A DNA stretch of 61,155 nt, filler included, from Sphacelaria rigidula (lineage: Eukaryota), in the NCBI GenBank assembly GCA_964200075.2. It is 9 parts of 9 records of this genome, joined end to end, with 100 filler letters (N's around TTAATTAATTAA, not from the genome) between each part and the next. Parts side by side here need not be neighbours in the genome. Positions count along the whole stretch, not along the records: positions 47,645 to 54,350 come from CAXNAA020018496.1; 8 more parts are not named here. One strand, given 5' to 3'. Both the position numbers and the translations under genes were made by a program. Positions 11,256 to 61,155 of the stretch are shown here, one piece after another (the stretch's first letter is position 1; the number at the start of each line of letters is the position of its first letter). The notes under the pieces are model-generated. The model was not told the origin of the DNA, ran no database searches, and worked only from the letters and a program-made list of their open reading frames with translations.

Positions 11256-12146
11256 CTATAGAGAACAGCAGAGTTGCGGATGAAGGGTGCAACAGCCCTT
11301 TAGCAATCGCGGCCTGCGAACAACCAACAAGCCTGAATGACGGTGATCGCTAGCTACTACACGGCGACATCGTGAGAAATCACCAGCAAGCAAGACCGTC
11401 TGCCTGACGCTATGAGCTGGGCCAGCCTAACTGAATGGCTTGGGTGGGCAGCCAAACCGCTCTTCTGACGTGTATGTATGGTCACTACGGGGTCCGGCCC
11501 ATGCCTGGCTACTTTGAAAACACAAAATACGACCAGAGAGTGGCAGAAACGAATTCTCGCATGCGCCAAGGGCAGCAGTCACCACCGACTGTAAAGATGG
11601 CCGTTAGGTACGTTGCCATTGTCGGTTGCCCGGGGTCTGTTCTAGATAAAGACATTGCTGTGTCAGCCGATTTTCGCGTACTTGCTAGACTCCCTCTTAG
11701 CTGGTGTAGGTGTTGATTTCGTGGGTCAGCATATCTGTGTAGGTTCACTCGCCGCCCCCTTTTGGGGGCTTAGATGGGTCCGGTGTTGACCCATTCTTTC
11801 GCCGTACTAAAATCAGATGGTTCATAAAAAAAATATACTGCGTCAGCAACCAATGTGCTCTATGTCGACACACGGTACACAACAGTTGCATAACGTGGGC
11901 GGAACGCTTTTTCCTTTCTTCGTTGTTCATATTTTGGCGCTTTTGGTCGTTCAAGCTTGGACATGAGCAATGTGCCCATGAAATTGGTTCAGTCTCCGCC
12001 ATGTAATGATGAAATTGTATGGCCTGTGTGTACACAAGCGGTAATTTTCGCCCTAGTCGCCGAAGAGGAAAGCAATGTATATTTAACCTCGCATGATGGT
12101 GATTGCATGCATCCAACATGTCTGGACAATTCGGACGAATGCTCAC

Positions 12147-12383
12147 CACTTTGGTCGCCGCATCCGCAGCGAAACGGTCAGCAACAACGACGTCTTTTGG
12201 CAGTAGTAGCTTGACTCCTCTGGCTTCCGCTTTGTCCATGAGGTCTCGCGCCATATCAACGAAGTCTTCTTCTACCATTGAAGCGCCCGTAGATAATCCA
12301 AGGGCTCGATAGAACGTAAAGATCATCCCACCGCCTAGAAGGATGCTGTCACACTTGCCGAGTAGCGAGTCTAAAACAGGGAT
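12147..12383 (-). CDS. PGK: Phosphoglycerate kinase, penultimate exon
   Basis: [29 protein letters not shown]...[15 protein letters not shown] acceptor and GTGAGC donor; 237 nt, phase 0/0; GGGMIFTF resembles plastid/cyanobacterial-type PGK. Confidence 0.95.
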
Positions 12384-12491
12384 CTGTAGGAATCACAAAC
12401 GAGAACACGAAACGTCCAGGATTCTGAGCATCATCTTCTCGTACACCAACGAAAACACGAGAGATCACACCCCTCGGCAGGAATACCGTAC

Positions 12492-12698
12492 CTTAGTGGA
12501 CACCTTAGCACCACCTATGATAGCCATGAACGGCCGGGAAGGAGCGTCCACGGTACCCTTGAGGTAGTTGAGCTCCTTTTCCATCAAAAAGCCAGCCACG
12601 GAATGCTCCATGAAATTGGTCACGCCGACCGTCGACGCATGTGCGCGGTGAGCAGCACCGAACGCATCGTTCACGAATATGGTCGCCAAAGCAGCAAG
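12492..12698 (-). CDS. PGK: Phosphoglycerate kinase, internal exon (upstream exons not on this contig)
   Basis: [15 protein letters not shown]...[14 protein letters not shown] acceptor and GTACGG donor; 207 nt, in frame. Confidence 0.96.
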
Positions 12699-39849: not shown

Positions 39850-41502
39850 GTGAGTACAGCACAACAACAGGTGCGCGAAGGTGATGTGGTATAACACCCC
39901 CTGCATGGGTGATGAGTTGTGAGTTGTTCAAGGCGTTCAACTGCGATTTGCACAAAATACAAGTTAAGACACCAACCACACTTCCACAACACCCCCTTAA
40001 AAAAGAATCAGCGACATCAACACAGCAACACGATTCCGGACGACGTTGTCATACGGCATGCCGCAGTTACCGCGAAACATCAACGTCAAGGCTCCATCGT
40101 CGCACACAACAGTTACCGCACATGCATTTGCCGTATGTCCACCATACTTTTTTCATGTGTGCTACATGTAACGATATTGTGCTATTTGATGGGTTCTATG
40201 GTAGTCTAGTACAATACTGTAGTTGGTCTACCGACTGCAAGCTTGTTGCCGTCTAGATGGACAGTGAAGATACTGTAGTTCCAAAGCCGGGTACGCAGTC
40301 CAAATGTCCAATACGGCCCGCTAAGATCTGTGAACCGTCCACTCCTAACGGGGTTGGTTGGTTGGGGGATGGTCATGAAATTATTTCGAGACTACGGCTT
40401 CTGACGTGGGGGCTACAACCTTAAACTTTTGACCTTAAACCTTATGAATCACGGATCAGGCCACCAGGAATCGGCTGTGCATTCCACCTTGTGTGTGTGG
40501 ATACGGGGGAACAGACACAGTCCCGCGCGAAATAAAAGATGATAAAAAAATATATGTGCCTGAGTGCTCGGCCTGGTGTTGGATATCGAACCATTTGGTA
40601 CTTCGATACGATATCGACTTTTTTAGCTTTCGATAACGATAATTTTCGAAAAATTTCGGCGAAGCCTAACCTCGGGAAGCGCATCGCTCGCTGTGCCAGC
40701 CCCAAACACCCCCCCAACCCCAATAACCACAACCCACCNNNNNNNNNNNNNNNNNNNNNNNNNNNNNNNNNNNNNNNNNNNNTTAATTAATTAANNNNNN
40801 NNNNNNNNNNNNNNNNNNNNNNNNNNNNNNNNNNNNNNGTTCTTGTGTTTGCTGGGTGCAGTTGGTGTGTCGTGGGGGTCTGGGTTGGGACGTGTGGGGG
40901 GACGGAGGACTGCTCGGATAGAATGAAAGCGAGATTTGGAGCTTGACGCTTGTGTATGTGCAGATATGCATATGAACTTGAAGATTCCAGGTTCAAGATC
41001 GTCGAAGAGCTCACTATAATTATTTTCTCGTCGGATTGCTGCACACGCGGCCATTTGGCCACCCCCAAAATTCCTCCAGAGCGGTCAACTTCCTAGCCTC
41101 CCAAGCGTTTGAGCGCCTCCAGAGGAATTTGGGGGGTAGACAATTAACCACGTGTGTGACTCCTCCACTCAACTCGTTCATCACGAGAAATGACTCGTGA
41201 GCAATGACTCGTGAGCAATGACTCGTGTGCCGGGGTCATTAACTTCTCCACCGCGAGCACGAGTACTCGCCCCCTTAATTTTTTCTAGCACGGGCAGTGA
41301 CTCGAGTGCTCGCCCTACTGATTATTTCTACAACGAGAAATGACTTGGGTACTCGCCCTATTATTTTTTACGGTCAACGAGCAGCCCAACGAGTGCGAGT
41401 GCCACGAGTCATACTCATGCTCGTCGGACGAGCACAAACTTTCAAAAAAAAAATCAATGTATCCCAACTCCCTGTTTCAATCAACCAATTGCTACAAGTT
41501 CA

Positions 41503-42050
41503 AACACAAGAGGACTACACGGAGTACAAAGGGATGTCGCTGGTGAAGAATACAGTACCACAGAGGAGGATCGGTTGGTATAATCGTCACCAGGGACTCT
41601 TTTTCCCCCCCTGTTCCCTCGTTTTTTTCAGAGCGTGGTTCAGTTCCGTTTTTGTTGGGTACGTCCATCATGAGACCACGGCTGGATCCCTGGGGGGTCA
41701 GTTCAAGTGCGAAAACCAATCCATCAATCAATCGAGGCAACGCACTTTGCGCGGCGTAGAGGTTGACTGATGGATGGCAGGACATACTCCTGGTGCGTCA
41801 AAATCGACCAGGCGGGATGCTGTTCCTTTGGCATCACTCCAACTGCGTCATACCCCCAGCAAATGTCCAACGGCCGCCTCCAACGGCTGCTTCCATCGTG
41901 AGAACTTGAGGTGTTTCCTGGCATCGAATCGTCTGTCACCCTCTACGTCGCGCGGAGACCATCGCTCGGTGATCATACCAACTCATCCTCCTCCGTGGCA
42001 CTGTAATTCATCAGCGACACCCCTCTGTGCTCCGTGCCGTCCTCTTGCAA
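41503..42050. mobile_element. MITE with ~85-bp inverted arms carrying an inserted RTE 3'-tail fragment (~41592-41733)
   Basis: CAAGAGGACTACACGGAG...GGTATAATC is mirrored by GATCATACC...CTCCGTGCCGTCCTCTTG; insert matches the 3' end of the LINE at 27786. Confidence 0.65.
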
Positions 42051-43025
42051 AAAGAGGGCGTTGATCAGCGACTGGTGTAAATTTTGCAACCACGTAGCAG
42101 TGACTCAAACCCGTTACACTCATGATATACCCTGCTGCACCAGACTCTCTTCTTGTAGGTACCGGGCCAAGCGCGCGGATGGATTCTCATCTGGCGAGAT
42201 ACTTGAACAAGTTTTGTGAAAGACGGACCCACGGCTGGCGGGTACACTCTCGCGTTAGGCAAGACTGTGGGTATCCGAACAGGACGTGCGTGAAAAAACG
42301 AGCTGGTCCACGTCCATCGCCCAAAATTGTGTCATCAGCAAATGCCTTCCGCAATACCCACCCGATAGTGGCACAATCAGCGACATCATATTGATCGCAA
42401 TGAACAAAGAGGGTGACATGTCCAGATTCTTGTTCAAGACCATAGTTGTGGCGCCAAGGGCGAAAAGGTATCTCAACCAATCAGCGACCTCATATTACTC
42501 TGAAATCAAAAATACGATTTCTCAACCCATTCTTGAACCAAATTTCCACAAGCTTCAAAGCGCAGGAACAGCCATCCGCTCCGGAATCTAACGGAAAAAG
42601 TAGATTTGACTCCACTACTACAGGATCGAATCATCCTAAAGACCGTGGTCATTCGGAGATGCGGGGTTTCGGCGTCATAGCATTTCCCCTGCTATGTACC
42701 GATGATACAGAAAGCCTCCCTACACTTTCTCTGGTATCTGTCGCTGAAAAGCTCCGATCGCCCACAAACTTAGCAGTTTGATAGGTGTTGGTGCACGAAA
42801 TTGTAAAGTGTATTGGTGAACATTATGAAGCTTCTCCGTCCTTTACCAGCTCCCGGGGGGTTTCCACCCCTAGACCCCCGGAAGCCGGTACAGAATGTTC
42901 TAAAGCAAAAAAAATGTACTCGTCCTGGAGAAGTCCAAGGAAAAATTGTACAATTTTTTGGTGCGAAACACGAATTTTTATTCAGTTTGTCTAGTTTTAA
43001 CGTTCAAATATATTTCTACGTAGCA

Positions 43026-43067
<42 letters not shown>

Positions 43068-43423
43068 AATTTCCTAGAGTCCGAATTCAAGAACGGGCGT
43101 GAAATTTGCGGATGAATAAATTGCGGGTGATGAGCGTGAGCCAGCTCGTACGTCGCATGGATCAGACTTGGACCAGTCTTGCTAGAAGGCACGGCTTGAC
43201 GTTTAGAGGCAATTGCCTCATTGACTGTGGGGGTGAGGGCCCCGTCGATCAAGTAACGAATTTGACAATTGACCAGGATAAGTATGGGCAATAACAACTC
43301 AATACGAACCAGTCTCGGGGTTTGTGACATTAGTAGGCGTATCGGGTATCAAGAGATTTAGTAAATACAACTGCATATTATCATGTTCTTTTAAGCTCTA
43401 CCCCGTATTTTTTCTCCCCTCAC

Positions 43424-43588
43424 CTCCTGTGGGTCGTCGGTGAAAAAGAGAGAGTCCACGTCGTCCTGAGCGATGGTGCCAAAGTCGACCAAGGCCTGCC
43501 AGTTGACCACGGTCTGCCAGTAGTCCTTGCCGAACAGGATGACAGGGAGGTTGCCCTGCACCTTGCCTGTTTGCTTCAGAGTCAGCAC
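43424..43588 (-). CDS. LOG-family (TIGR00730-like, lysine-decarboxylase fold) protein, internal exon
   Basis: VLTLKQTGKVQGNLPVILFGKDYWQTVVNWQALVDFGTIAQDDVDSLFFTDDPQE; CAG acceptor and GTGAGG donor; in phase with the 46196-46332 exon. Confidence 0.9.
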
Positions 43589-46195
43589 CTGTCCGATTGA
43601 TCCATCAAAAAAATTCGCGAAAACGTGGTTCAGCGGAAGAGGTAAAGGCAACACGAAGCCGTCCCTGTCTCATCCTCTCGGTTGTCAACCTTCTTTCCTT
43701 GGGCATACGACGCTTCAACAGCGATGTTAACTGGGTTCCAACACCTATTAATGGTACAAGTTTCGCTCATATCGTGGCTTGTGGGTTATATATATATATA
43801 TATATATATCTTCATCATCTTCTTCGTTTACATTGGGCACGGCACGTCTGTATCGTGCACACGACTGTATTACCAGAGGATCATTTAATGTGCGTCATCT
43901 GAGTCGTTCTGTTCGACTTTTCCTGTTCCTTCTTTTTCTTCAGCGAGTGTCTTCGTCTTGTTTTGTCTTGGGTACGTCCATCATGTGACCACGGTTGTAT
44001 CCGTGGAGGGTCAGTCAAAGTGCGACAATCAATCAATCAATCGTTCAATCAATCATTGGTGAGAACCGCGGCTTTCATCCACACCACAAAGCACCAACTC
44101 GCACGCATTGAGATTTTGTTTCTTCCCCCCGGTTCGACTCCGGGAATGTTCATCTGTCACAGGTGTTCCATCTTCTCGAGTCATCTTCTATTCCGTCACC
44201 GAAACAATGCCCTTGTTACCCTCTGCCGATTCCTGGTTGTTTCACTCGTGTGTCATTGCTCGTGTTTTCATTAAAAGCTGAATGTTTTCAACATTGAGAA
44301 CATTTTCCCGGTCATCACTGCGGTAACCCACCGCCCACCAGATTAGTGATGCTCCTTGACCGCGGTTGCCCGAGAATCTTCCCTTTTCGATCGCGGATCT
44401 GACTAAAAAGGTTGATGCGATGGTTTGAACAAAAAAAAACTAGAAAAAAACGGCGGCAGCTTACAACAGTTTCACTTTCCACATTCTCACCCGAGACTTC
44501 CTTGACCATCCCACACAAGAGAGAACACCCAGTGTCGCCTTCGTTGACATCTGTGACCCACGAGGCCATCGTCTCCACTTCCGAGGGCGGGGGTCTCATA
44601 TTGAAACATCTGAAGCACAAAGGTGAACCAATCTCAACAATAAAGCGGAGCTATGCGACTGCATAAAAGTACTGAGGTTTCCATTATTGGAAATCGTCTA
44701 CACTTCCTCGTGCTCGAACAGTGCAGCCATCTTTTTCTCAGTCACACTTTAAACCCCTTTCCTTCTCCAAGACCGTAGTTAGCATCGGTATTGTTTTCAG
44801 CCACCGGGATGGAGAGGGTGTACTCATCTGTTGCTTGTCCTAGCCGTTTGACCGTTGACAACGCATCCTTTTCGAGACGAAGCACCGTTTCTACTCCTAA
44901 TAGACATCTCTAACATTGAGGTCCTCAACACGTTCCTTCCACATACCACACAAAAACACTTTACACATCTTATCCCCGTCCTGTTTCGCGGTCTCTGGTC
45001 ACCATCGATCTCCTAGTATTGCCATCGTTTTCTCCCTACTGTCTAGTGCATCAAACAATTTCATGCCACCTTCGTTCACGTCCCACATTTCCCCTATCGA
45101 GAGGAGGGGGGAGGGGGGGGAAGGGGGGGGTGGCACGCAGCGCAGTGTACGGAAGGCTTCACATGATGATGGGCAGAGTCACCCGACTGGCGAACCCAGA
45201 GGGCTGGGCGACAGGTCAGCGTATCGATCGTTCATGGACGGAGGGTGTTCGAACCTCCTGCTGAAATGCATATCAATTTTGTTCCGAAAGGGGTATACCC
45301 TGAACGCCAAGGCAACCATACTGTTGTCGTACACTGCCCATGACGGGAGACAGACAGTGACAGCATCAGAAGCTCGTGAAATCATTGTAAGAGCCATGGA
45401 GACGCGCGTGAGAATGTGCTGAGTTGAGCTTTTCCCACTACGGACTTGTACGTGTGTGATGGAAGTGCTCGTAACACGTGATGGTTTTGCTCATGGCTCC
45501 CCCCAGAAAAATGGCTGGTTGGAGGATGCAAAATCCATACGTGAACCAAAATGACAAAAATCCGAGCACACCGGGCAGCTGGGAACTCCCATAATTGTGA
45601 TCGTTCTCGTTCATCTTGCCCATACCATGGCCGTTTTTTTTTCTGGGAGGGGGGGGGGGGGCTGTGGCGGCATCACTCAACTGCTGTACACAAAAAATCA
45701 ACGAAGGCCGGAAGTGAGCTCAATATCCCGATGTAACGGAACTGGAAGCTGGAAGCTGGAAACTACCCGCATTTGTCATGTTCGCACCTGCGTGCCACGA
45801 GAGCCAGCGTGACACGTTTAGACTTTCAGACATGAGCAGAGCAAAGGCACTGACATTGACCTTGACCCCTCGTGCCGTCCATGAACGTGATAGAAACACG
45901 CCTGGCTTCGGAGCCACTCTCAACTACCAGGATTACTGTCTGACGGCAGCAACCTTCAGCAGGTAGAACTGGAGACACATCTTCTTGGGCAGCAATCATC
46001 CTCACTGTGTCCCAAGTTCCAGGCTTGAGCCAATCATGATGAAACTTCTCAAGGTTCCTCTCTCGTGGAAAAGGTGTTTTTACGGAGACCACGGCTGGAC
46101 CCCTGGGGGGGTCACTTAAAATGCGACAATCAATCAATCGATCAATCATCAACGGAAGGGTAATATGCACACTTGTAATCGACTTTGACTTTCAC

Positions 46196-46332
46196 CTCGA
46201 ACAGCTCATCGAGCGTACCGAAGCCACCGGGGGCCACCACAAGAGCCTGGCAGTGGTAGAGCATCCAGAACTTGCGGGTGAAGAAGTAGTGGAACTCGAA
46301 GGCGAGCTCATCCGTTACATACTCGTTTAGTC
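46196..46332 (-). CDS. LOG-family protein, exon with the catalytic motif
   Basis: FEFHYFFTRKFWM...VVAPGGFGTLDELFE (PGGxGTxxE); CAG acceptor and GTGAAA donor. Confidence 0.92.
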
Positions 46333-46626
46333 CTGGAACAAATAGTGCACACATCGGACGGATAACGATCTCTCTGAAACAACTAATCAAAGAAGACTCG
46401 AGTTCGTTGGTCCAAAAACACGAACTATGTGACCGCGGAGTCAGAAACGCCAAAGCGCAGCCTTCGCACGAATCGGCGTGCTCAGGTTCCGGCGCCGTAA
46501 GGAGCGAACCATGGAAAAGGGGGGGTCAAATGATACGGATCATGATCCGGGTCGGTATACTGAGAAGAAGTCATTTTCATACGGATCATAATCCGTCCGA
46601 CGTGTGATAAGAATAACAAAAACAGA

Positions 46627-47470
46627 GGGGGGGGGCGGGGCGTACTCATTTGTTGCTTGCCTTAGTCGTTTGATCATTGACCACGCATCCCTTTCGAGAC
46701 GGAGCACCGTTCCTACTCCTAATAGAGACACCCCCAACATTCTGGCGCTCATTAGAGCGGGGGGCGTTCTCATGTGTTGCTTGTCTCAGTCGTTTGACCA
46801 TTAACCACGCATCCCTTTCGGGACGGAGTATTAGAGGGGGGGGGGGGAGGCGTACTCATTTGTTGCTTGTCTTAGTCGTTTGACCATTAACCATGCATCC
46901 CTTTCGAGACGGACAGAGGGTGTACTCATGATCATGCTTGCCATAGTCATCAGACCATTGACCTCGCATCCCTACAAAAGACGGACAGAGGGGGGGGGGA
47001 GGGGGGGTCAAAACATCAAAATGTAAACATACAGAGCCAAAAGCAACGGCAATACGGACATGGAGAAACATGGATAGGTTTGATCCAAAGTTATGTCGGA
47101 TCTCCATTTATCATCCACAGGAATTTCTTGCGTAATATATTCCAACTGATGACGGCACCACGAGGTGAGCTTACGTCATTTCTGACTATCGCCACCTCGT
47201 CAGTGGTGGCCCATCTTTCTTCTCATTTTCCCTGGCGGGCGTGGGGAAGGTACTCGTGATCTTGCATGCCGTAGAGACCATACCATAGACCTCGCATCCC
47301 TGCAAAGCCGGGACGGAGCACGCTGGGTTTTCGCTGGACTAGGCTCGCATTCAATCCCCAAGAGCGAAGCGCCGTAGAGTGTTCGGCGAGTCGTATGAGG
47401 GGTGAGCTGCATCCTGCTAAGAAGGTTCACTGGTCTGATGACTATGGCATGCATGATCATGAGTACTCCC
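46627..47470. repeat. Cluster of ~65-70-bp G-run-anchored modules
   Basis: Four tandem copies at 46636-46990, a fifth at ~47248 and an inverted partial copy at ~47430-47468. Confidence 0.85.
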
Positions 47471-49118
47471 CCCCCCCCCCCCCCCCCCCCCCCCGACCCC
47501 CCCCCCCCCTCACACCCCACCCGCCCCCCCCCCCCCCCTGACCCNNNNNNNNNNNNNNNNNNNNNNNNNNNNNNNNNNNNNNNNNNNNTTAATTAATTAA
47601 NNNNNNNNNNNNNNNNNNNNNNNNNNNNNNNNNNNNNNNNNNNNCGAAGGCTGTACAACAACTCCAACCGTTTCCTATTGCCCCGCATAATATCCCGCCT
47701 GTTACTCAGTGAACAATTCAGCTTGATGCTACTGAACGTTGACTCACATATGTTATGCAACGTGAAATTTTTGGCAATGGAGGCCAGTACAAACATGGGG
47801 GAATCTGTGGCCAAGCTTTCGGCGACGAAGGTCTACCCGGGAGAATTAGTGAGGTAGCGACGCATGGTGAACCGTGCACGGAGTGGGGGGAAGTGATGAT
47901 GTATTGGACATCCTGATGTGTTACCATGGCTTTGTGTTATGCGAGCCGTCCTCGGAACTTACACGTGAAATTGACTTCCCTGGAAGAGAGTAGGCACTGC
48001 AGCAGTGGGGCATGAAGATAAAATGTACGATGGCGGGATGGATGGCTGGTTTCCCTTGCAGATCGCAAAGCACAAACGTGGGGTACTTCTGTCAAGGGTT
48101 TTGGACTTGACTCCAGGCTACGAGCCCGTGTTGAAGGCATTCTTATTTCCGGTAAGCCAGCAACAGATTTGAAAGACACCAGACCCTCAACAGGTACTAG
48201 GATTGCGATACCCCGGCACCTTAAACCCCAGAACATGGAGTGCATGCAGTAGGTTCAGTCTTATGCACAATCCCCGATAAGTGCCCACCATCGCCGCACC
48301 CAGTGTGGAGCACCCTTTGCCTACCCAACGCAGGATATAGCGGTGTTTATCAACACACATGACAGTACGCCAAACATGTTGAGAGTCGGTGAATGGTGTT
48401 CACCACTACATCACCTACCTGGTATGAAGAGTTCGCGCCAATCGCTAATTACTGACGGATATCACTTGTATGAACTGGCTGTCCAGCTTGCATGGCCCCC
48501 GATGCGAGGCGCTAAAGTCAGAGTGGTGGCGCGGCGTGTGGAGAACAAATATTACAGGGGTCGGACAAATGAACGATTCGTCTGAAAATTACTTGATTGT
48601 AGTGTGATCGATTTGTACCGAACAAATGAATTCATGGCCTTTGTTTTCAGGCGACGCGCGCCCCAGGCACGCGGAATGGCGCAAATATTACGTGGAGACT
48701 CTCTTTACCAGCATTCAACTTTTTCCCATCTTTCCAGCAATCGGGCCTCAAAAATCGTGGATTTCGTCATTCCAAGCGGTGATGATTTGTCCGAAACTTC
48801 AAATATTACAAGTAGAGAAACCATACCAGCGCCGTCGACACAAGACTTTGGTGCATGTTCAGTGTTCAACACCACTTCCTTCGTTTAGTCGCCCGAGCAT
48901 GGCAGCAACAATCTCGAGATTACGATTCTCATCATGACGTCGTTCCCGCTGTGGCGATCGTATTCAATTGCTATTATTGTCGCCTGCGCACTTCGCGGTA
49001 GGGCTTACGAGTCCACTCTAGTCCACGTGCCTGTTTTTGACCGGGATATCAAAATGACGGTTCACTTACATTTTTTCGGTCGTGATACACGCTTGTCTTC
49101 GCTGCTTGATTGGTGCAG

Positions 49119-52100
49119 GCTCGTGCTGGATTGGTGAGCTGTGTGGTCAGGGGGGTTCCCCGAAACGACCATTTTTCGGTGCAGCCGGTGGCAGAAAGGC
49201 GGAGTTCTGCGTCATACAAGCCCCAGCTGGTATGGTCAATGTACCAAGCAAGCGGTGCGGCAAGGAGGGATGTTCCAAACAACCACCTTCCGGTGCCGCC
49301 GGTGGCAAAAAGGCGGAGTTCTGTGCCATGCACGCCCCAGCGGGTACGGTCAATGTACCAAGCAAGCGGTGCGGCAAGGAGGGATGCTCTAAACAACCAT
49401 CTTTCGGTGCCGCCGGTGGCAGAAAGGCGGAGCTCTGTGCCATGCACGCCCCAGCGGGCATGGTCAATGTATCGAGCAAGCGGTGCGGCAAGGAGGGATG
49501 CTTCGAACAACCATCTTTCGGTGCCGCCGGTAAGAGGAAGGGAGAATTCTGCGCCGTGCATGCCTCAGAGGGCATGGTCAGCGTTATCCGCAAGCGGTGC
49601 GGCAAGGAGGGATGCCCGAAACGACCGTCTTTCGGTGTAGCTGGTGGGAGGAAGGCCGAGTTCTGCGCCACACACGCCCCAGAGGGCATGATCGACGTGA
49701 ACCGCAAGCACTGCGGCGAGGAGGGATGCTTCACACGAGCATCGTTCGGTACAGCCGGTGGCAAAAACGCAGAGTTCTGCGCCACACACGCCCCAGCGGG
49801 CATGGTTGATGTATCAAGCAAGCGGTGCGGCAAGGAGGGATGCTCCAAACAACCATCTTTCGGTGCAGCCGGAGGCGGGAAGGCAGAGTTCTGCGCCACA
49901 CACGCCCCAGCGGGTATGGTTGCCGTACGAACCAAGCAGTGCGACGAGGAGGGATGCTCTAAATATCCATCTTTCGGTACAGCCGGTATCAGAAAGGCAG
50001 CGTTCTGCGCCACACACGCCCCAGCGGGCATGGTCAATGTATCAAGCAAGCTGTGCAGCAAGGAGGGATGCTCGAAACGGCCGTCTTTCGGTGTAGCCGG
50101 TGGCAGAAAGACAGAGTTCTGCGCCACACATGCCCCAGCGGGCATGATCAACTTGAACCGCAAGCAGTGCGGCGAGGAGGGATGCTCCAAACAACCATAT
50201 TTTGGTGTAGCCGGTGGGAGGAAGGCCGAGTTCTGCCCAATGCATGCCGCAGCGGGCATGGTGGACGTAGTTCGCAAGCTGTGCGGCGAGGAGGGATGCT
50301 CTAAACAACCATCTTTCGGTACAGTCGGTGGGAAGAAGGCAGAATTCTGCGCCACACACGCCCCAGCGGGCATGGTTGCCGTACGAACCAAGCAGTGCGA
50401 CGAGGAGGGATGCTCTAAACAACCATCTTTCGGTGCACCCGGTGGAAAAAACGCAGAGTTCTGTGTCACACACGCCCCAGCGGGCATGGTTGCCATACGA
50501 ACCAAGCAGTGCGACGAGGAGGGATGCTCTAAACAACCATCTTTCGGTGCACCCGGTAGCAGGAAGGCAGCTTTCTGCGCCACACACGCCCCAGCGGGCA
50601 TAGTTGCCATACGAACCAAGCAGTGCGACGAGGAGGGATGCTCTAAATATCCATCCTTCGGTGCACCCGGTAGCAGAAAGGCAGAGTTCTGCGCCACACA
50701 CGCCCCAGCGGGCATGGTCAATGTATCGAGCAGCCGCTGCGGTGAGGAGGGATGCTCTAAACAACCATCTTTCGGTGTAGCTGGTGGCAGAAAGGCAGAG
50801 TTCTGCGCCACACACGCCCCAGCGGGCATGGTCAATGTACCAAGCAAGCGGTGCGGCAAGGAGGGATGCTCTAAACTACCATCTTTCGGTGCCGCCGGTG
50901 GCAGAAAGGCAGAGTTCTGCGCCACACACGCCCCAGCGGGCATGGTCAATGTATCGAGCAGCCGTTGCGGCGAGGAGGGATGCTCTAAACAACCATCTTT
51001 CGGTGCCGCCGGTGGCAGAAAGGCAGAGTTCTGCGCCACACACGCCCCAGCGGGCATGATAAACGTGAGAGGCAAGCGGTGCGGCATGGAGGGATGCTCT
51101 AAACATCCATCTTTCGGTACAGCCGGTGGCAGAAAGGCAGAGTTCTGCGCCACACACGCCCCAGCAGGCATGATTGCCGTACGAACCATGGAGTGCGGCA
51201 AGGAGGGATGCTCTAAACATCCATCTTCCCGTGCAGTCGGTGGCAGGAAGGCAGAGTTCTGCGCCGCGCACGCCCCAAAGGACATGGTCAGCGAAATCCG
51301 CAAGCGATGCGGCAAGGAGGGACGTTCCAAACAAGCATATTTCGGTGTAGCCGGTGTCAGAAAGACAGAGTTATGTGCCGTGCACGCCCCAGCGGGCATG
51401 GTCAATGTATCGAGCAGCCGCTGCGACAAGGAGGGATGCTCCGAACGACCATATTTCGGTGCAACCGGTAGCAAAAAGGCGAAGTTCTACGCCATACGCT
51501 CCCGAGCAGGCATTGCTCACTTCACAAGCAAGCGTTGCGGCAAAGAAGACTCTAAACATCCGTCGATCGGTGCGGCCGGTGGTAGAGAGACGAAGTTCTG
51601 TGCCACACCCGCCCGCGCAGGACTGATATCCATGAACGACAATGAACGTGTCCCGCAGCGTTGTTCCAAACGGGTGCGGAAGCACCAGTATACGTGCCGT
51701 GATGCTGCACACTGTCTGGCCATGGCGTCTGATGTACCACATGTCCAAGCAAAGAACCGCCCGAACGATAGCCCAGTCGTGGGAAAAAGTGGTGTCGATA
51801 TCGATGAACGTGATGGAAGACCCACCCACCCATCGGATGCCGGTCCCAACGCAAACGATGGTTGTTGTAACACCAACTTTAGTCGTAGCTCACGTGTCAT
51901 GTGTTCCAGGAGACGGGGTGCGGACTCTACGACCACGTTGCCTGTCGCCTCAAGACAACCCCCTGGCACGGCGACCGCAGATGGAGTTTCTCCGGATGGG
52001 TCACAGTCACGCATGAAAACGAAAATAGAGACGACTGTTGCGCCCCCGCGAGGTTTCTACGGAAAAAGAACTAGTGGCGAACTGGTAACTACACAATCCA

Positions 52101-52351
52101 GCACTTGCGACAGCATGAGCGATGGCGGCTCCAGCGGCACCACTACAAATAGGAGCTGCTATAGCAGCATCGCCAGCGGAAGGAACACAAAGTGGCTACG
52201 CCGGACGGTGCGAGGGAAGTCGGTATTTGATGTGGCAGCGGGGAATGATGAAACGTTTGAGGGAGAGGGGGGTGACGTAAAGCGAGAGTTGGACGTGTCT
52301 GCCCCCTCTTGTTACGTGTCTGCGGCCTCATCCCGCACGCGCGAGAGGTAG
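49119..52351 (+). CDS. EsV-1-7 domain (cysteine-rich, zinc-finger-like) tandem-repeat protein, main exon
   Basis: Uninterrupted 3.2-kb frame with 22 repeats of 38 aa (114 nt) at 49142-~51646, consensus CGKEGCSKQPSFGAAGGRKAEFCATHAPAGMVNVSSKR, then a ~235-aa low-complexity tail. Start is either ATG 49232 or a spliced exon at 48934-48997. Confidence 0.9.
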
Positions 52352-53576
52352 GTCGATGAGAGGGCCCATGCACGCCCCTTTCCGGGCTGGTACCTGGTAT
52401 GGTGCTGTTCCACTATATCTGTTTATTGCGTCGGTCATGATTCCGTACAAACCTCCGCGAGAGGTGTCAACTTGGCTGTTTCCGGGTCGTATGGTGCCGC
52501 TGTGTTTGAATCGTAGCTGGAGGGAGGCCACGTGGTCATGGTGGATTATCGTGTGCTTCCGGATATTTTAAAAGTGTTTCCCGTACGAGCTGGGCCAGCC
52601 TCCAGGCGGATTTGAAGTTTGCAGGCCCATGCTCCCTCCAATATTTAGAGTTGGACCCTTGAATTTGGTATGGACAGTGAATAGGGCATGGAGAAAAAAA
52701 TTACGTCGGCACCATTTATTTTTTTCAGGGTACAACTCTAAATATTGGCGGGAGCGTGGTCCTTGAAAAACCGGGTCGGTAGAAATTCGGAACAGTATTT
52801 CGAAGGCCACTCACCGGCCCATGTTTGTTTTTCGTGTAATGAAATTTTGTGTGGGCGCTCTCTGAGGCATAATTAACAACACTCAGAGGGTCAGCTTTTT
52901 TTCAATTATTTTTTTCACTGCTTCATGGCGTTCTTGTTTGGTGAAGACCATTTCTTCACGAGAACGCCCTAACCTCTGTTGAAAAACATGAAAAATGAAG
53001 GCCCATTTGTTTTTGCACACTTTTGTGGTTCTTCCTTCTAATTTTCAAATCACACAAATCTAAAAATTGAGCTAAAACATTGAGATGAGGCCTACGAGCA
53101 ACGTTCATTTCTCCTCGATACTCCAATAAAAACACGAAAAAAATGGGAAAAAAATGAACAAAAGGTAACAAGTTGTTTTTACTTTTTTTATTATGCACTA
53201 GCAGCTCACCACACGAAATTCAATGGAACAACTCTCAAGAACTGAGGGGTGACATCCAGATTTAGGGCATCTAGTGCCTCTGCTCGTAATATATTGGTTT
53301 TAGTATAGGAACTTATGTGCGCCATATCTCGGGACAGATAAGGAATCAGGTAAGGGTATCTATCGTCTCCCCCTGCTCCGGAGAATGTCCACACCAAACT
53401 TTGTCGTCATCCGCTGAATGCATCGATCGGGGGTTTCATAGAGATTTTAGTGTGGATACCATCTCCGTTAAGTTTAGGAATCACTAGACATGGGGTTTAA
53501 TTAACGAGAAGATTTGGGCCCAAACTTTCAAGCAGATGGGCACCTTCGCCTTGGTTGGACGATTAATACGATACTA

Positions 53577-53870
53577 AACAAGGTGTTCGTGAGATTGAGA
53601 GTTGGGTGCGGAGTGAGAGTGACTTTGGTCGTTTGCTTTAACTTGGCCAATTTTTCATTCCTGGTGTGCTTTTCGTCGTCTCATCACTGCCATGTGCTCA
53701 CAGCTACACGTTGATATCCTACTCGGGTATCGAGGGCCTCAGTGGCAAGCTACTACAGAAAGAATATTTGGCCTGGTGGAGATGCATTTCGGAACTGAAA
53801 CGTTTTCAGTAGTTGACCGCTTTTCACTCTCAATCGTACCTTCAACTCTCAATTTCACGAAAACGTTGTT
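53577..53870 (+). mobile_element. MITE family B
   Basis: AACAAGGTGTTCGTGAGATTGAGAGT...ACTCTCAATTTCACGAAAACGTTGTT; TSD ACTA. Confidence 0.93.
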
Positions 53871-54677
53871 ACTAGTGGTGAGCCACGGCTGACGCGCGTG
53901 GCAGTAGTGCTGCAGGTATCAGCGGCACAAGTCTGGCACGCGTGGAGCTTTTGAACAAAATGACGAAAACAAATGACCCCGACAATCACCGTAATTCATC
54001 AGGAGAAGCAGAAAGGGACTTCCAACCCCACGGCTACCCGTAGCCACTACAAAAGAAAGGAAGCCTGACCGTGTTGGCGCCAACCTGACAGCGCTACATT
54101 CATGGAGAACCTATCCCGAAGAAGCAAGGAATAAACGGAGTAGAATAGCGCTCCGTCTCTCATCCCCCCACCGCAGGTACAGTAGTATCTCGTCAAGGCG
54201 TGCCTTGGACCATTGATGTTAAGGTGATAACCTACCAGATTCTTTTTTTTCCCCACCGCAAGCTTGCCAGACACGGAACAAAACAACAAATTGTGCGAAT
54301 TGAGGTTTAACTCTGAGATGAGGTTCAAGCCTAAAACAGTGCTTTCCCCANNNNNNNNNNNNNNNNNNNNNNNNNNNNNNNNNNNNNNNNNNNNTTAATT
54401 AATTAANNNNNNNNNNNNNNNNNNNNNNNNNNNNNNNNNNNNNNNNNNNNTGCTTCGGATGTTTAGGAGGACCCGAAGCGGCCACCTTCCCCGTCGTTTT
54501 CCGAACCGTTTCGATTTCGTCGACTGCTGCGGGCATTTGGGGGGGGAGATGGCTTCGCTCGGTCGTAGGTGTTTCGCGTGATCCCTGCAGAAAAGAAATG
54601 CTACTTCAACCTCATTTTTGGGATGTACCCCATTTTTTAGGATCCGCTGTTTCATGATGACAGGAGGATGGACGTGT

Positions 54678-58529: not shown

Positions 58530-61155
58530 GGGGGGGGGGAACAGTTGCGGCGAAGGAGCGTGGTTCAAAGCGGGGCGTGGACGTCGTGGGTGTAGTCGAT
58601 GTTGCGCTGGTGACCGCGGCAAAGTCCTTTGGACCCAAGGCGCTGGAGGCACCAGGATCCGCGAGGTGCAGATGGGCTGGTGGTGTGTAGTGCTGGCCAG
58701 AGCTTGAGCTGTATGGGTCCAGGGTCATCGATGAAGCGCACGATGTGTGTGTCGGCAGAATCCAGGTTAGCGGAGCGGGTCTGATCCAGCCACCAGAGGT
58801 TATCGCTGCCTTTGAACCAACGGTCGCTGCCCTTGGGCAGTAATCGCTGGTTTGCGAAGAACTCTCTCTTACAAGTCTTGGTGGGTACAAGTTCGTAACC
58901 ATCGGCGACGGAGCGTAGTCCCTAATTGCGGTGAAGTTCGCGAGCTGCTGTGCCACAACGCATGTTGCGATATTTCTTGTTGCGAGTAAGATGCTGATGA
59001 TGGGATTGCGTCCAGTATAGGAGGATTGCACGGTGGTGCAGTTGAAGGTCGGATTCGCGTTCCCGAGACGCTCTCCGGAGGCCGTGCCAGTGGGTCTTAT
59101 ACATGACAGCGATTTTTTCACCTCGACCACGGTTTATCTGGTGGCCGGAGATGGAGGAAACGGTCAATCGGAGGGACTCTTCCGTCACGTCGTCCGTGGT
59201 AACGTGGTAGGACGGTGATTTGGTCGAGTAGCTGTTGAGAACATACTGTGTTAGTCCGGCAGGCAGGTACTTGGGCATGTCGCTTGTATCATGCGGGTTC
59301 GTGCAGGGTTTGCATCTGTGCACGGAGACGCGGGGTTTGGTGACCTTGCCCTGGAAGTCGCGAGACAAGTCGAGATAGAGCAGCTTGTCATCAGCGGGTT
59401 TATCATCCGGTGATGGTGGCGATGGTCCGACTGTCGGGATCTTGAATGGCCCTGTCCAATTGAGGGACAACTTTGTCTTCAAATGTTTTTCGTTGGCTGC
59501 CTTGCTGGTGCCTTGGCGGATGGTCGACAAACTGTTGTAGATCGAAACCTAATCCCCAACTTTCCAGTTGGGGCGTTTGTGCATGAGGTTGTAGAGAGCA
59601 GTGTTAAATCTCGTTAGGCGCGAGGCATTAATAGCGTGTTGTTCGCGCACGAGGGTAAATGCTTTGCGTTGTCGTGCATGCGCTAGCTCGTGGTAGGATA
59701 TCTGATCCTGATTCAACCCTTAACAGGGGATTCTATAAAATGAGGTTGGTCAATGAAATGAGGTTTGAGGAGGCTAGCCAGTATGCGACAAAAACCCGAG
59801 GGAAGTACCGTCCGCAAGTGCCTTCGATCATTTTCGGGGTGGGTAGGGCGTACTCATTTGTTGCTTGTCTTAATCGTTCGACTATTGACCTTTCGAGACG
59901 GGGCGTGGTCAACGGTCAAACGACTAAGACAAGCAACAAATGAGTGCGCCCCCCCCTCCCCGAAAATGATCGAAGGCACTTGCGGACGGTACTTCCCTCG
60001 GGTTGTTGTCGCATACTGGCTAGCCTCGTCGAACCTCATTTCATTGATCAACCTCATTTTATAGAATCCCCTGTTCCTTGGTGGCCGTCGAACGTGTGTC
60101 GCTCAAACACGGTGATGGGCAGCCGAGGGTAAGGTCCAAGATGGAGTTCGTTCGGAGAAAGGCCTGTGGCGGCGTTGACCGAGTTGTTGTAGGCAACATG
60201 ATTTGCGAGAGATATAGGTCCCAGTAATTTTGGCGGTCATTGACAATCATAGAGAGCATCTGGGCCATGGTGTGACTAACTCTTTCGGTACCACCGTTAC
60301 CGTTCGGGTGGTAGGCGCTCTTGGCAATTTTGCGGATGCCCAGGAGCTTGTAAAGCTCATCAAAGAGATCTGAGCAAAATCGCTGACCGTTGTCTGAAAG
60401 GAGTCGCTTTGGGCAACCGTAGTGCTTAATATAGCCGTGGACCAATATGCCGGCCGTTCCGGCGGCAGTGGAATATGCGGCGGTTACCGCGTACATGGAC
60501 GCGTGGCGGCTGAAGCGGTCAGTGAAGATTAAGATGTAGGTGTTGCCGCGACCTGTGGTCGGTAGAGGGCCAAAGTAGTCAAAAGACACATAGTGGCCTG
60601 ACTCGTTGGGGAGTCCCATAGAGATGAGGGGCCAGCGTACTGTCTGCCATGAAGTCTTTCGGGCTTGGTATTTTAAGCGTCGCCGAATCCAGAAGCGGGT
60701 GAAAACTTCCATGCCAACCCGCCAGTAGAAGCGTTCCAAGAGCGCCAGGGTGCGGGTGACGCCAAGGTGACATGGCAAGTCTGTGTGGCAGCCTTTCATG
60801 ACCCAGGGGCGTATTAATAATGGGAGATATATACGTGTTGATTCGTCATCGGGTAGTCGTGCGTGGCGTCCCGTGGTGGAGACGGAAATTGCGCCTGTCA
60901 AGGGCGTGGCGCGACGCACGAGTAGTTGTACACCTTCATTCGTAGTAAAAAGGATGCCTTTACGCACGAGCTCGTATACGTCAGAAATAACTGGTGGCGG
61001 CAGTGTGCCAACCGGGGCCAGAAGGGCGGATGGAAAAGGGACTGGACAGTCGAGTTGTAAGTATCGCATGGCTGCGCGACATAGCGGTTCCGCGTTTTGT
61101 TTGCGAGCCCAATCGTGTTAATAGTAGCTGGGAGGCATCCTACGATAGGGGGGGG
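58530..61155 (-). mobile_element. Decayed Ty3/gypsy retrotransposon: integrase and chromodomain-like region
   Basis: CHTDLPCHLGVTRT (zinc-binding), DYFGPLP, TDRFSR, LLSDNG, YHPNGNGGTER, NWTGPFKI, and YKTHWHGLRRASRERESDL; stops, frameshifts and a MITE insertion. Confidence 0.93.
59722..60075. mobile_element. 354-bp foldback MITE, family A, inserted in the gypsy pol
   Basis: AACAGGGGATTCTATAAAATGAGG...CCTCATTTTATAGAATCCCCTGTT; TSD CCTT; removing it restores ...GHQGLNQDQ.... Confidence 0.95.

What the first reader, a model, noticed from the sequence alone, without database searches (positions are those of the whole stretch)
49142..51646. 22-unit EsV-1-7 zinc-finger-like array with focused hypervariable positions: candidate programmable recognition protein
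Seen: 22 tandem 38-aa units with C-x4-C-x16-C-x2-H and a nearly fixed scaffold. Units 1 and 20-22 are degenerate, like caps. Variation concentrates at position 9 (R,Q,Q,Q,R,R,Q,Y,R,Q,Q,Q,Q,Y,Q,L,Q,H,H,Q,R,H), position 11 (S/Y/F/P) and the inter-finger linker (NVPSKR, NVSSKR, NVSSSR, AVRTKQ, DVNRKH, NLNRKQ, DVVRKL, SVIRKR, NVRGKR). Established: EsV-1-7 repeats are shared between the phaeovirus EsV-1 and brown algae, where they form an expanded family that includes IMMEDIATE UPRIGHT; I know of no defined ligand. Inference: R/Q/H/Y and N/D/S/R are typical base-contacting residues, so this may be a TALE/PPR/C2H2-like modular nucleic-acid reader. In a genome this transposon-rich it could be a KRAB-ZNF analogue aimed at transposons or viruses.
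Basis: partly seen in the sequence, partly recalled or inferred. Interest (0 to 1): 0.82.

Follow-up and report, generated by a model that had tools for sequence, protein, structure and literature searches.

The report
Long EsV-1-7 zinc-repeat gene, brown alga
This is an unusually long member (22 repeats) of the known EsV-1-7 cysteine-rich repeat family of brown algae and their giant viruses; it is a good test object for the family's unknown function, but nothing here shows a programmable, TALE-like reading code.

Summary
One open frame (49058-52351, +) carries 22 head-to-tail 38-residue units from 49142 to 51649. Pfam EsV_1_7_cys matches at E 3.8e-285 with 21 stretches. Eighteen units (2-19) keep all four putative zinc ligands (C1, C6, C23, H26); units 1 and 20-22 have lost some.

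The gene stands alone among ordinary host genes. It ends in a 233-residue tail found in only 27 of 1.84 billion representative proteins. All named tail-bearing relatives are Sphacelaria rigidula proteins, and they have 0-7 intact units. So this is a large in-gene expansion within a lineage-restricted subfamily.

The claim of focused hypervariability is only partly right. On a tree of the units, the flagged columns (9, 11, 33-38) hold 42 of 128 residue changes. The top two columns hold 15 of 128. Most variable columns change at about the synonymous rate. Column 9 is nevertheless the most unit-variable core column in 51 related arrays; it is only one of several in 36 viral arrays.

AlphaFold2 gives small three-stranded zinc modules with no fixed packing between them and no clear PDB match. 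The array is basic (net +58).

Best reading: a probably nuclear, beads-on-a-string zinc-module protein that binds a polyanion, most likely DNA. The ligand is unproven. This scan noted EsV-1-7 arrays before, on giant-virus DNA.

The parts
49117..49118 (+). Putative splice acceptor AG after a pyrimidine-rich stretch; the exon would begin at 49119 (intron phase 1)
   Evidence: Sequence read and checked. In two runs guessed to be RNA, contigs lie on the window only from 49115 onward and carry 99 and 92 further letters that do not lie on 47645-54350 (records 1 and 9). A contig of run X5 runs straight through 48579-49192 (record 27). This is a hint, not proof.
49058..52351 (+). Open frame of 1097 codons plus the TAG stop (52349-52351). 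It has no in-frame ATG before 49232
   Evidence: 49232 is the first ATG in any frame after the putative acceptor, and it is in frame. It is the Met of the GMVNV motif of unit 1.
49142..49255 (+). Unit 1, degenerate (C6 replaced by S, H26 replaced by Q)
49256..51307 (+). Units 2-19: 18 intact EsV-1-7 units of 38 residues (114 bases) with C1, C6, C23 and H26
51308..51649 (+). Units 20-22, degenerate. Unit 20 lacks C6, unit 21 lacks C23 and H26, and unit 22 lacks C6 and H26 and is one residue short. The same degenerate last unit is kept in paralogue P0041
51650..52348 (+). C-terminal tail of 233 residues. It is rich in S, R, T and G, has pI 9.4 and no Pfam domain, and defines a lineage-restricted subfamily
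52190..52204 (+). KWLRR, within the subfamily motif [TA]-K-R-L-R-R (K invariant in 14 of 14 sequences; R, L, R at 90% or more). It looks like a nuclear localisation signal; that reading is an inference
   Evidence: Alignment A2; coordinates checked
52277..52288 (+). VKRE, within the motif D-V-K-x-E-L (K and E invariant in 14 of 14). It fits the hydrophobic-K-x-E sumoylation consensus, which is recalled knowledge and an inference
   Evidence: Alignment A2; coordinates checked
52352..52633 (+). Probable 3' untranslated region, up to the point where a high-copy repeat begins
   Evidence: Contigs of runs X1-X3 cover 51383/51387-52633 with no differences (records 8, 16 and 24)

Best explanation
This is an intact and probably transcribed brown-alga host gene. 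It encodes a very long EsV-1-7 repeat protein with 22 units, 18 of them carrying a full Cys3His ligand set. After the array comes a serine- and arginine-rich tail that marks a subfamily seen, among named proteins, only in Sphacelaria rigidula.

Shown:
- Family membership.
- The repeat anatomy.
- The gene sits alone among housekeeping genes.
- The array is far longer than in its tail-sharing paralogues (18 intact units against 0-7), so it grew by duplication of units inside the gene.

Inferred:
- Each unit folds on its own around one zinc ion, held by C1, C6, C23 and H26, into a small three-stranded sheet.
- The units are joined by short basic linkers (x-x-K-R) without fixed packing, like beads on a string.
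- The protein enters the nucleus through the conserved KRLRR motif.
- Its strongly basic array lies along a polyanion, most likely DNA, with many weak module contacts adding up.
- The residues that differ between units are probably the exposed ones: columns 7, 9 and 11 between the second Cys and the first strand, 24 and 25 inside C-x-x-H, and linker columns 35 and 36. They may tune what each unit touches.
- Their pattern is what loosely constrained surface positions give. It is not a one-or-two-residue code.
For: Identity and anatomy:
- Pfam PF19114 at E 3.8e-285 with 21 stretches.
- Period 114 with no indels.
- 18 strict units.

An intact gene under some constraint:
- The frame is open for 1097 codons.
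- Among units 2-20, pN is 0.166 and pS 0.279, a ratio of 0.59.
- Contigs of three runs guessed to be RNA cover 49115-52633 with no differences and carry unlike letters 5' of 49115.

Host setting:
- 68 of the window's other 77 stop-to-stop frames of 120 or more residues were scanned against Pfam; the nine not scanned all overlap the array. They gave GTPase, phosphoglycerate kinase, LOG-like and integrase matches and no EsV-1-7.
- A six-frame pattern scan found 18 hits in the array and one chance hit elsewhere.

Subfamily and expansion:
- The tail is 64-72% identical to P0041 and P0042.
- It is present in 16 of the 155 other proteins then fetched and in 27 of 1.84 billion representatives.
- These paralogues have 0-7 strict units.
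- Tail motifs are conserved.

Modules:
- AlphaFold2 on one unit gives pLDDT 85.1, with strands at unit positions 12-14, 20-22 and 31-33.
- AlphaFold2 on four units gives pLDDT 84.3 but pTM 0.47.

Polyanion binding:
- Net charge is +58 over 836 residues, pI 9.3.
- K or R occupies column 37 in 154 of 190 related units and column 38 in 144 of 190.
- A published Tc1/mariner transposase of Ectocarpus carries an N-terminal EsV-1-7 domain (passage read in PMC12477816). DNA-binding domains usually sit at that place in such transposases; this last point is recalled.

Variable face:
- Within-array entropy per column tracks that of related arrays (Spearman 0.73).
- Column 9 is the top column in 19 of 51 arrays.
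- In viral arrays columns 11, 9, 24, 25, 29, 7 and 4 lead.
Against: - No experiment or computation here shows zinc binding, nuclear location or any ligand.
- The runs that cover the gene are only guessed to be RNA and come from one study.
- The 5' end is unresolved. No upstream coding exon was found in the window, so the protein may simply start at the ATG at 49232.
- None of 59 giant-virus EsV-1-7 proteins carried a DNA-acting Pfam domain at E 1e-5 or better, and none of the 32 re-scanned at lenient thresholds did. The transposase fusion is therefore the only architectural pointer to DNA.
- The only fold matches are weak, to RING and B-box zinc domains (best 5zi6_A: Z 3.1, rmsd 2.5 A, 38 residues aligned). 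Those are protein-binding modules.
It was not measured.
Confidence: 0.5

Rival explanations
1. Programmable reader. Each unit reads one short stretch of DNA or RNA through a few specificity residues (column 9 plus linker residues). The 22-unit array would then spell out a long target such as a transposon or viral sequence, as TALE, PPR or C2H2/KRAB proteins do.
For: - In 51 related arrays (315 units) column 9 differs between units of one array as often as between arrays (0.81 against 0.86, ratio 0.94). Other free columns give 0.62-0.68 against 0.82-0.90.
- Column 9 uses mainly Q, R, H and K, 199 of 315 units.
- Column 9 has the most inferred changes in this array, 8.
- On a tree built from scaffold columns only, linker types and column-9 states do not follow the tree: 17 changes against a shuffle mean of 16.95, and 9 against 9.25. 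This could mean they are decoupled from the scaffold.
- The array is basic.
- A transposase fusion has been published.
Against: - Variation is spread out. The top two columns hold 15 of 128 changes, eight columns have 6-8 changes each, and the dispersion index is 1.43 with p 0.042.
- In the variable columns pN is about equal to the mean pS of 0.279: column 9 at 0.35, 14 at 0.38, 25 at 0.38, 38 at 0.40. Only column 35 (0.74) is clearly higher.
- Ten of the 21 column-9 codons are non-Q. Five are R (CGA or CGG), one transition from the Q codon CAA at a CpG; only those five of the ten can be put down to CpG mutation.
- In 36 viral arrays column 9 is not singled out.
- The scaffold-only tree rests on 87 bases and is poorly supported, so one search is inconclusive.
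- No solenoid packing is predicted.
- There is no effector domain in the tail.
Confidence: 0.12
2. Protein-binding scaffold. The zinc modules are protein-protein interaction units, as in LIM, RING or B-box proteins, and the long array is a multivalent adaptor.
For: - The only structural neighbours of the single-unit model are RING and B-box domains: nine chains with Z of 2 or more among 48,161 (eight entries listed), the best at Z 3.1, rmsd 2.5 A, 38 residues aligned.
- None of 59 viral family members is fused to a DNA-acting Pfam domain.
- The Ectocarpus family members carry no other Pfam domain (methods passage read in 10.64898/2026.04.27.720984).
Against: - Z of 2-3 is within the range the tool calls uninformative.
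- RING and B-box domains bind two zinc ions in a cross-brace, whereas this unit has four ligands only.
- The strong net positive charge and the transposase fusion fit nucleic acid better.
Confidence: 0.2
3. Runaway repeat expansion with little or no function. Unequal crossing-over inflated the array in a fast-turning-over gene family, and the units are drifting towards decay.
For: - 18 intact units against 0-7 in the paralogues.
- Four end units are already degenerate.
- The overall pN/pS of 0.59 is high.
- The N-terminus is unclear.
- The family is known for rapid, lineage-specific expansion (passage read).
Against: - 1097 codons run without a stop, and there are no indels in 21.5 copies.
- All four ligand columns, and also E4, G5, G16 and A27, are invariant or nearly so in units 2-20, although the units differ at 8-33% of bases.
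- The degenerate last unit and the tail motifs are conserved in paralogues.
- The gene is covered by contigs of runs guessed to be RNA.
Confidence: 0.1

Closest known systems
EsV-1-7 domain family (Pfam PF19114, InterPro IPR043822), including Ectocarpus IMMEDIATE UPRIGHT and the gene EsV-1-7 of Ectocarpus siliculosus virus 1
   Same: The repeat is the same (C-x4-C-x16-C-x2-H, period about 38 residues), in tandem arrays and with no other Pfam domain. The setting is a brown alga. The closest named relatives are Sphacelaria rigidula and Ectocarpus proteins.
   Different: The array is far longer: 22 units. The largest strict counts seen were 11 in 36 long relatives and 17 in viral frames. These are not a census, because proteins over 1920 residues were not searched and both protein searches scored only the 8000 best candidates. 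IMM has five repeats and its own N-terminal domain (passage read), and no such domain was found here. The tail is specific to a small subfamily.
Tail-sharing Sphacelaria rigidula paralogues (P0041, P0042, P0044, P0045, P0043, P0048, P0039, P0066, P0040, P0051 and others)
   Same: They share the C-terminal tail (38-72% identity), with the KRLRR and VKxE motifs, and P0041 keeps the same degenerate last unit.
   Different: They have 0-7 intact units against 18 here. Nearly all their gene models start at the internal Met of a G-M-V-x-V motif, so their true 5' ends are as uncertain as this one's.
C2H2 zinc-finger arrays (including KRAB-ZNF proteins)
   Same: Both are tandem small single-zinc modules with Cys and His ligands, form basic beads-on-a-string arrays, and belong to large, lineage-specific, fast-turning-over gene families.
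   Different: No beta-beta-alpha fold or recognition helix is predicted. There is no Pfam zf-C2H2 match. The linker is the most variable part rather than a conserved TGEKP. No KRAB-like domain is present.
TALE and PPR repeat proteins
   Same: Both have many tandem repeats of about 35 residues, and one repeat position (here column 9) recurrently differs between repeats.
   Different: The modules are all-beta zinc modules rather than helical solenoids. Variation is spread over at least 8-10 columns rather than 1-2. No code is known.
TcMar-2_Ec32 transposase of Ectocarpus with an N-terminal EsV-1-7 domain (PMC12477816, passage read)
   Same: It has the same domain type. It is the only published architecture I found that places the domain where a DNA-binding domain is expected.
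   Different: It is a transposase fusion, whereas this protein is a pure array with a tail. I did not see its sequence.

Membership tests
EsV-1-7 cysteine-rich repeat family (PF19114) | Match to the Pfam model above its gathering score | tested here: met
   919.7 bits against a cut-off of 25, E 3.8e-285, 21 stretches
EsV-1-7 cysteine-rich repeat family (PF19114) | Ligand pattern C-x4-C-x16-C-x2-H in tandem units of about 38 residues | tested here: met
   18 of 22 units are strict, all 38 residues apart. Units 1 and 20-22 are degenerate.
EsV-1-7 cysteine-rich repeat family (PF19114) | Occurrence in brown algae, related stramenopiles or giant viruses | tested here: met
   The closest named proteins are from Sphacelaria rigidula, Ectocarpus, Pylaiella, Scytosiphon, Ascophyllum and Laminaria. 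59 of 59 scanned frames from viral contigs carry the domain.
EsV-1-7 cysteine-rich repeat family (PF19114) | Zinc binding by the Cys3His set | not testable with these tools
   The ligand columns are conserved, but no metal can be shown here. [quoted passage not shown]
IMMEDIATE UPRIGHT orthologue | IMM-specific N-terminal domain followed by five repeats | tested here: inconclusive
   There are 22 repeats, not five, and the N-terminus was not located. IMM itself was not compared directly.
TALE-like programmable repeat protein | Near-identical repeats whose differences are confined to one or two positions | tested here: not met
   The top two columns hold 15 of 128 changes. Eight columns have 6-8 changes each. 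Units are 67-92% identical in DNA.
TALE-like programmable repeat protein | Repeats pack into a regular helical solenoid | tested here: not met
   The AlphaFold2 model has no helices. Local confidence is 84.3 but pTM is 0.47. This is a prediction only.
TALE-like programmable repeat protein | One repeat reads one base or short word by a residue code | not testable with these tools
   This needs binding assays.
C2H2 / KRAB zinc-finger protein | C2H2 beta-beta-alpha finger (Pfam zf-C2H2) with a conserved linker | tested here: not met
   No zf-C2H2 match at E 0.01 or better. No helix is predicted. The linker holds four of the five most variable columns (35, 33, 38 and 36, alongside core column 9).
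C2H2 / KRAB zinc-finger protein | Repressor domain (KRAB or similar) beside the array | tested here: not met
   No Pfam family in the tail. The tail matches only 27 representatives, and all the named ones are EsV-1-7 proteins.
RING / B-box zinc domains | Cross-brace fold binding two zinc ions through eight ligands | tested here: inconclusive
   Weak fold matches only (5zi6_A: Z 3.1, rmsd 2.5 A, 38 residues aligned). The unit has four conserved ligands, not eight.

The most novel reading that the evidence does not exclude
EsV-1-7 arrays could be a further natural class of modular, unit-per-site nucleic-acid readers. A short exposed stretch (columns 7, 9 and 11) plus the C-x-x-H insert (24, 25) and linker residues (35, 36) would set what each zinc module contacts. 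This 22-unit protein would then recognise a long or repeated genomic target such as a transposon, satellite or viral sequence, and the family's lineage-specific expansions would reflect an arms race like that of KRAB zinc-finger genes.
Probability: 0.1. Interest if true: 0.85.

Novelty: new member of a known kind. Interest (0 to 1): 0.35.

Why it matters
EsV-1-7 genes form one of the largest gene-family expansions in brown algae: 2018 proteins in 31 genomes, by a passage read in 10.1101/2024.02.19.579948. The family includes a developmental regulator, yet the papers I saw report no ligand, structure or mechanism.

This gene does not change that picture. It does offer a clean natural substrate: 18 intact, closely related units in one exon. 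It also gives a concrete, testable shortlist of unit-specific positions, namely column 9 first, then 7, 11, 24, 25, 35 and 36. If binding assays on such arrays showed sequence-specific recognition, the family would become a new class of modular binders. If not, the idea can be dropped for the whole family.

Tried and rejected
- **Whole genome:** none is held for this window.
- **Cover by sequencing runs:** no listed holder is on record as RNA. Runs X1-X3 are only guessed to be RNA. They gave no cover over 48093-48988 and next to none over 47869-48092, where X5 has cover. I do not count this as evidence.
- **Upstream exon:** a scan of 40001-49114 for a donor ending GCAG|GT in the right phase found one site (45962), with only 6 open codons before it. 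I rejected it.
- **Ancestral states for a per-site selection test:** I did not seek them elsewhere and used the offered count of fewest changes on a tree.
- **Scaffold-only tree:** I asked whether linker types follow unit descent. The tree rests on 87 bases with weak support, so the result is inconclusive.
- **Tail search among proteins of 603-1920 residues:** no hit. Shorter proteins did hit.
- **Solved structures by sequence:** one chance hit at E 0.54.
- **Foldseek against the PDB:** no match at E 0.001 or better for either the four-unit or the one-unit model.
- **VIA-align:** one chain at Z 2.4 for four units. Nine chains reached Z of 2 or more (best 3.1) for one unit. Both results are too weak to name a fold.
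- **ESM Atlas:** no usable hit.
- **The search for related loci with the four-unit alignment:** I replaced it with a degenerate DNA pattern scan of viral contigs.
- **Nuclease fusions noted earlier in this scan:** 0 of 59 viral EsV-1-7 frames had any DNA-acting Pfam family at E 1e-5 or better. None of the 32 re-scanned did either: 10 at E up to 1 and 22 at E up to 0.05. So the fusions were not reproduced in this sample; the earlier notes concern other loci.
- **Weak summed Pfam matches:** zf-primase (43.1 bits, no single stretch passing) and CoV_NSP13_ZBD, and Zf_WRKY19 or Phe_ZIP in relatives, are sums of many weak repeat matches. I rejected them as evidence of kinship.
- **The 2017 IMM paper (10.1242/dev.141523):** not held. 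What I say of it comes from other papers' passages.
- **Supplementary tables:** It lists family members and may already include this gene or longer arrays.
Full report
**What is there.** The + strand frame 49058-52351 is open for 1097 codons. Tandem Repeats Finder reports a 114-base period with 21.5 copies, 82% matches, no indels and score 2740 at 49163-51614. Cutting the translation every 38 residues from 49142 gives 22 units ending at 51649. Pfam EsV_1_7_cys (PF19114) matches with 919.7 bits, E 3.8e-285 and 21 stretches.

Units 2-19 all carry C1, C6, C23 and H26. Unit 1 lacks C6 and H26. Unit 20 lacks C6. Unit 21 lacks C23 and H26. Unit 22 lacks C6 and H26 and is one residue short.

**Setting.** 68 of the window's other 77 stop-to-stop frames of 120 or more residues were scanned against Pfam; the nine left out all overlap the array. 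They gave:
- a GTPase (9637-10518);
- phosphoglycerate kinase pieces (11748-12833, minus strand);
- a LOG-like piece (46145-46525, minus strand);
- a retroelement integrase (60062-61117, minus strand);
- weak zinc-knuckle and proteasome matches;
- no further EsV-1-7 gene.

A six-frame pattern scan found 18 hits in the array and one chance hit elsewhere. So the gene is a single copy in a host chromosomal region. It is not part of a tandem gene cluster within these 61 kb. No whole genome is held.

**Gene structure and expression.** The frame has no ATG before residue 59. A pyrimidine-rich stretch ends in AG at 49117-49118. Contigs of three runs of one study, which the tool only guesses to be RNA, lie on 49115-52633 without any difference. 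Two of them continue 5' of 49115 with 99 and 92 letters that do not lie on 47645-54350. A contig of a fourth run goes straight through 48579-49192. That pattern fits a spliced transcript whose second exon starts at 49119, but it is a hint only.

I found no fitting upstream coding exon in 40001-49114. The first ATG after the acceptor in any frame is at 49232 and is in frame. So either an unseen coding exon lies further upstream or in a withheld stretch, or translation starts inside degenerate unit 1. Nearly all annotated paralogues also start at the Met of a G-M-V-x-V motif. That may be the gene caller's habit rather than independent support.

**Relatives.**
- Among proteins of 603-1920 residues, 36 matched at E 1e-10 or better. 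The best was 48% identical over 39% of the query, and none had more than 11 strict units.
- Among shorter proteins, 305 matched at E 1e-8 or better. The top named ones are from Sphacelaria rigidula.
- P0041 and P0042 are 64-65% identical over the last units and the whole tail.
- By BLAST, the tail (from residue 865) matches 16 of the 155 other proteins then fetched.
- By phmmer, the tail (residues 866-1097) matches 27 of 1.84 billion representatives at E 0.001 or better.
- An alignment of 14 tail-bearing sequences has an invariant K in a [TA]-K-R-L-R-R motif (window 52190-52204) and invariant K and E in a D-V-K-x-E-L motif (52277-52288).

I read the first motif as like a nuclear localisation signal and the second as fitting the sumoylation consensus. 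Both are recalled consensus patterns and inferences. The tail-sharing paralogues have 0-7 strict units against 18 here, so this gene has undergone a large expansion of units inside the gene.

The longest arrays I saw elsewhere were 17 strict units in a viral frame (L027) and 11 in cellular hits. I cannot a record. Proteins over 1920 residues were not searched, and both protein searches scored only the 8000 best candidates.

**Is the variation focused?**

Within units 2-20, entropy is highest at column 35 (2.30 bits), then 9, 33 and 38 (1.78), 36 (1.76), 14 (1.47), 25 (1.36), 17 (1.34) and 3 (1.24). Column 11 has 0.77.

On a maximum-likelihood tree of units 1-21, the fewest residue changes sum to 128 over 38 columns. 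Column 9 has 8. Columns 3, 14, 25 and 35 have 7 each. Columns 18, 33 and 38 have 6 each. The dispersion index is 1.43 (chi-square p 0.042). A uniform rate would give about 2.1 columns with 7 or more changes, against 5 seen. The binomial p is 0.0013, or 0.011 if the four ligand columns are left out of the denominator. These changes are not independent events. So there is a modest enrichment, not a TALE-like concentration: the two top columns hold 15 of 128 changes.

Overall pN is 0.166 and pS 0.279, a ratio of 0.59. The variable columns have pN of 0.35-0.43, close to or a little above the mean pS. Only column 35 (0.74) is clearly higher. The data are too few to exclude selection.

Column-9 codons are CAA (11), CGA (4), CGG (1), TAT (2), CAT (2) and CTA (1). 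The five R codons (CGA, CGG) are one transition from CAA at a CpG; H, Y and L need other changes.

**Family-wide view.** I cut strict units out of all fetched proteins. This gave 51 other arrays with five or more units, 315 units in total. The sample is biased towards relatives of the query, and the ligand columns are invariant by construction. In this set:
- Column 9 has the highest mean within-array entropy (1.84 bits).
- It ranks first in 19 of 51 arrays.
- It has the highest within-array mismatch (0.81; next 0.68), almost equal to its between-array mismatch (0.86).
- Its residues are mostly Q (80), R (75), H (25) and K (19) of 315.
- This array's entropy profile follows the family's (Spearman 0.73 with mean within-array entropy; 0.62 with the pooled entropy of 57 units).

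In an independent set of 36 distinct giant-virus arrays (213 units), the leading columns are 11 (0.80), 9 (0.74), 24 and 25 (0.73), 29 (0.72), and 7 and 4 (0.71).

The common picture is a variable set at 7, 9 and 11 that alternates with conserved K8, P10 and F12. It also includes the two residues inside C-x-x-H, columns 28 and 29, and linker columns 35 and 36. That is what exposed positions of a tiny zinc module would show. It gives a shortlist of candidate contact residues, not a code.

A tree built from scaffold columns alone did not group units by linker type or by column-9 state. It rests on 87 bases with weak support, so I draw nothing from it.

**Fold.**
- AlphaFold2 on four units with a 24-row alignment gave mean pLDDT 84.3 but pTM 0.47, with no helices.
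- On one unit with 78 rows it gave pLDDT 85.1, with three short strands at unit positions 12-14, 20-22 and 31-33.
- The profile found no solved relative by sequence: one hit at E 0.54.
- Foldseek found nothing at E 0.001 or better.
- VIA-align found only weak matches: Z 2.4 for four units. For one unit, nine chains reached Z of 2 or more (best 3.1), and all but one of the eight listed are RING or B-box domains.

I infer independent single-zinc modules on flexible basic linkers. That is nearer in layout to C2H2 arrays than to TALE/PPR solenoids, and the fold is not yet tied to any solved class. I could not read the model's coordinates, so burial of individual columns was not measured.

**What it binds.** The array carries 125 K+R against 67 D+E, net +58 with pI 9.3. 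In related units, K or R occupies linker column 37 in 154 of 190 and column 38 in 144 of 190.

[quoted passage not shown] Earlier notes of this scan report giant-virus genes that join EsV-1-7 repeats to a Vsr-like nuclease. I could not reproduce such a fusion. None of 59 viral frames had a DNA-acting Pfam family at E 1e-5 or better, and none of the 32 re-scanned at lenient thresholds did.

The papers I saw call the domain a possible new class of zinc finger of unknown function (passages). My searches for 'EsV-1-7' (11 papers) and for 'PF19114', 'IPR043822' or 'EsV_1_7_cys' (2 papers) brought up no paper that reports a ligand, a structure or a residue code in the listings and passages I read. 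I therefore commit to polyanion binding, most likely DNA, in the nucleus as the most likely mode, at roughly one chance in two including its vaguer forms. Protein scaffolding and functionless expansion are the live rivals.

**Verdict.** This is a real, well-defined and unusually long member of a known family, sitting in a small lineage-restricted subfamily. The idea of focused hypervariability is weakened to a modest enrichment plus a family-wide variable face led by column 9. The programmable-reader idea remains an untested possibility, at about 0.1. The novelty class is a new member of a known kind, and interest is moderate.

Noticed in passing
window 50147-50159 (unit 9, columns 32-36): Contigs of runs X2 and X3 differ from the window, X1 and X5 by nine letters within 13 bases and by nothing else over 185 and 303 bases. 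This changes the linker from M-I-N-L-N-R-K-Q to M-V-D-V-R-S-K-Q. No other unit of this gene is an exact donor; the closest, unit 11, differs by 2 letters. It could be a short conversion tract in an allele or a very recent paralogue, or an assembly chimera.
   Followed up: partly
window 52573-54350: Directly after the gene's 3' end, contig depth in run X5 rises from about 70 to between 1e5 and 8e5 in most bins, with many short internal joints. This indicates very high-copy interspersed repeats, possibly MITE-like.
   Followed up: no
window 47468-47538: A 71-base run of mostly C (81% matches) lies about 1.6 kb upstream of the array, next to a withheld stretch.
   Followed up: no
window 49147-51486 (minus strand): The antisense strand of the array is also open for 779 codons. 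This is a by-product of the stop-free repeat; Pfam support is for the + frame only.
   Followed up: no
window 60062-61117 (minus strand) and 18082-18543 (+): A retroelement integrase frame (rve, E 2.1e-8, plus Integrase_H2C2) and a weak CCHC zinc-knuckle frame. Transposon remnants therefore lie in the same window as the housekeeping genes.
   Followed up: no
P0052, P0068, P0125 and L064:1923-3236: In some relatives the first dozen residues of the EsV-1-7 unit add up to a whole-protein match to Pfam Zf_WRKY19 (34-79 bits against a cut-off of 27, with no single stretch passing). This may hint at a distant link to a land-plant zinc motif, or be a mere sum of weak repeats.
   Followed up: no
window, every 6806 bases (e.g. 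47545-47588 and 47601-47644): Pairs of 44-base runs of N recur at a fixed spacing. They are withheld stretches rather than assembly gaps. One pair lies in the likely promoter or first-exon region of this gene.
   Followed up: no
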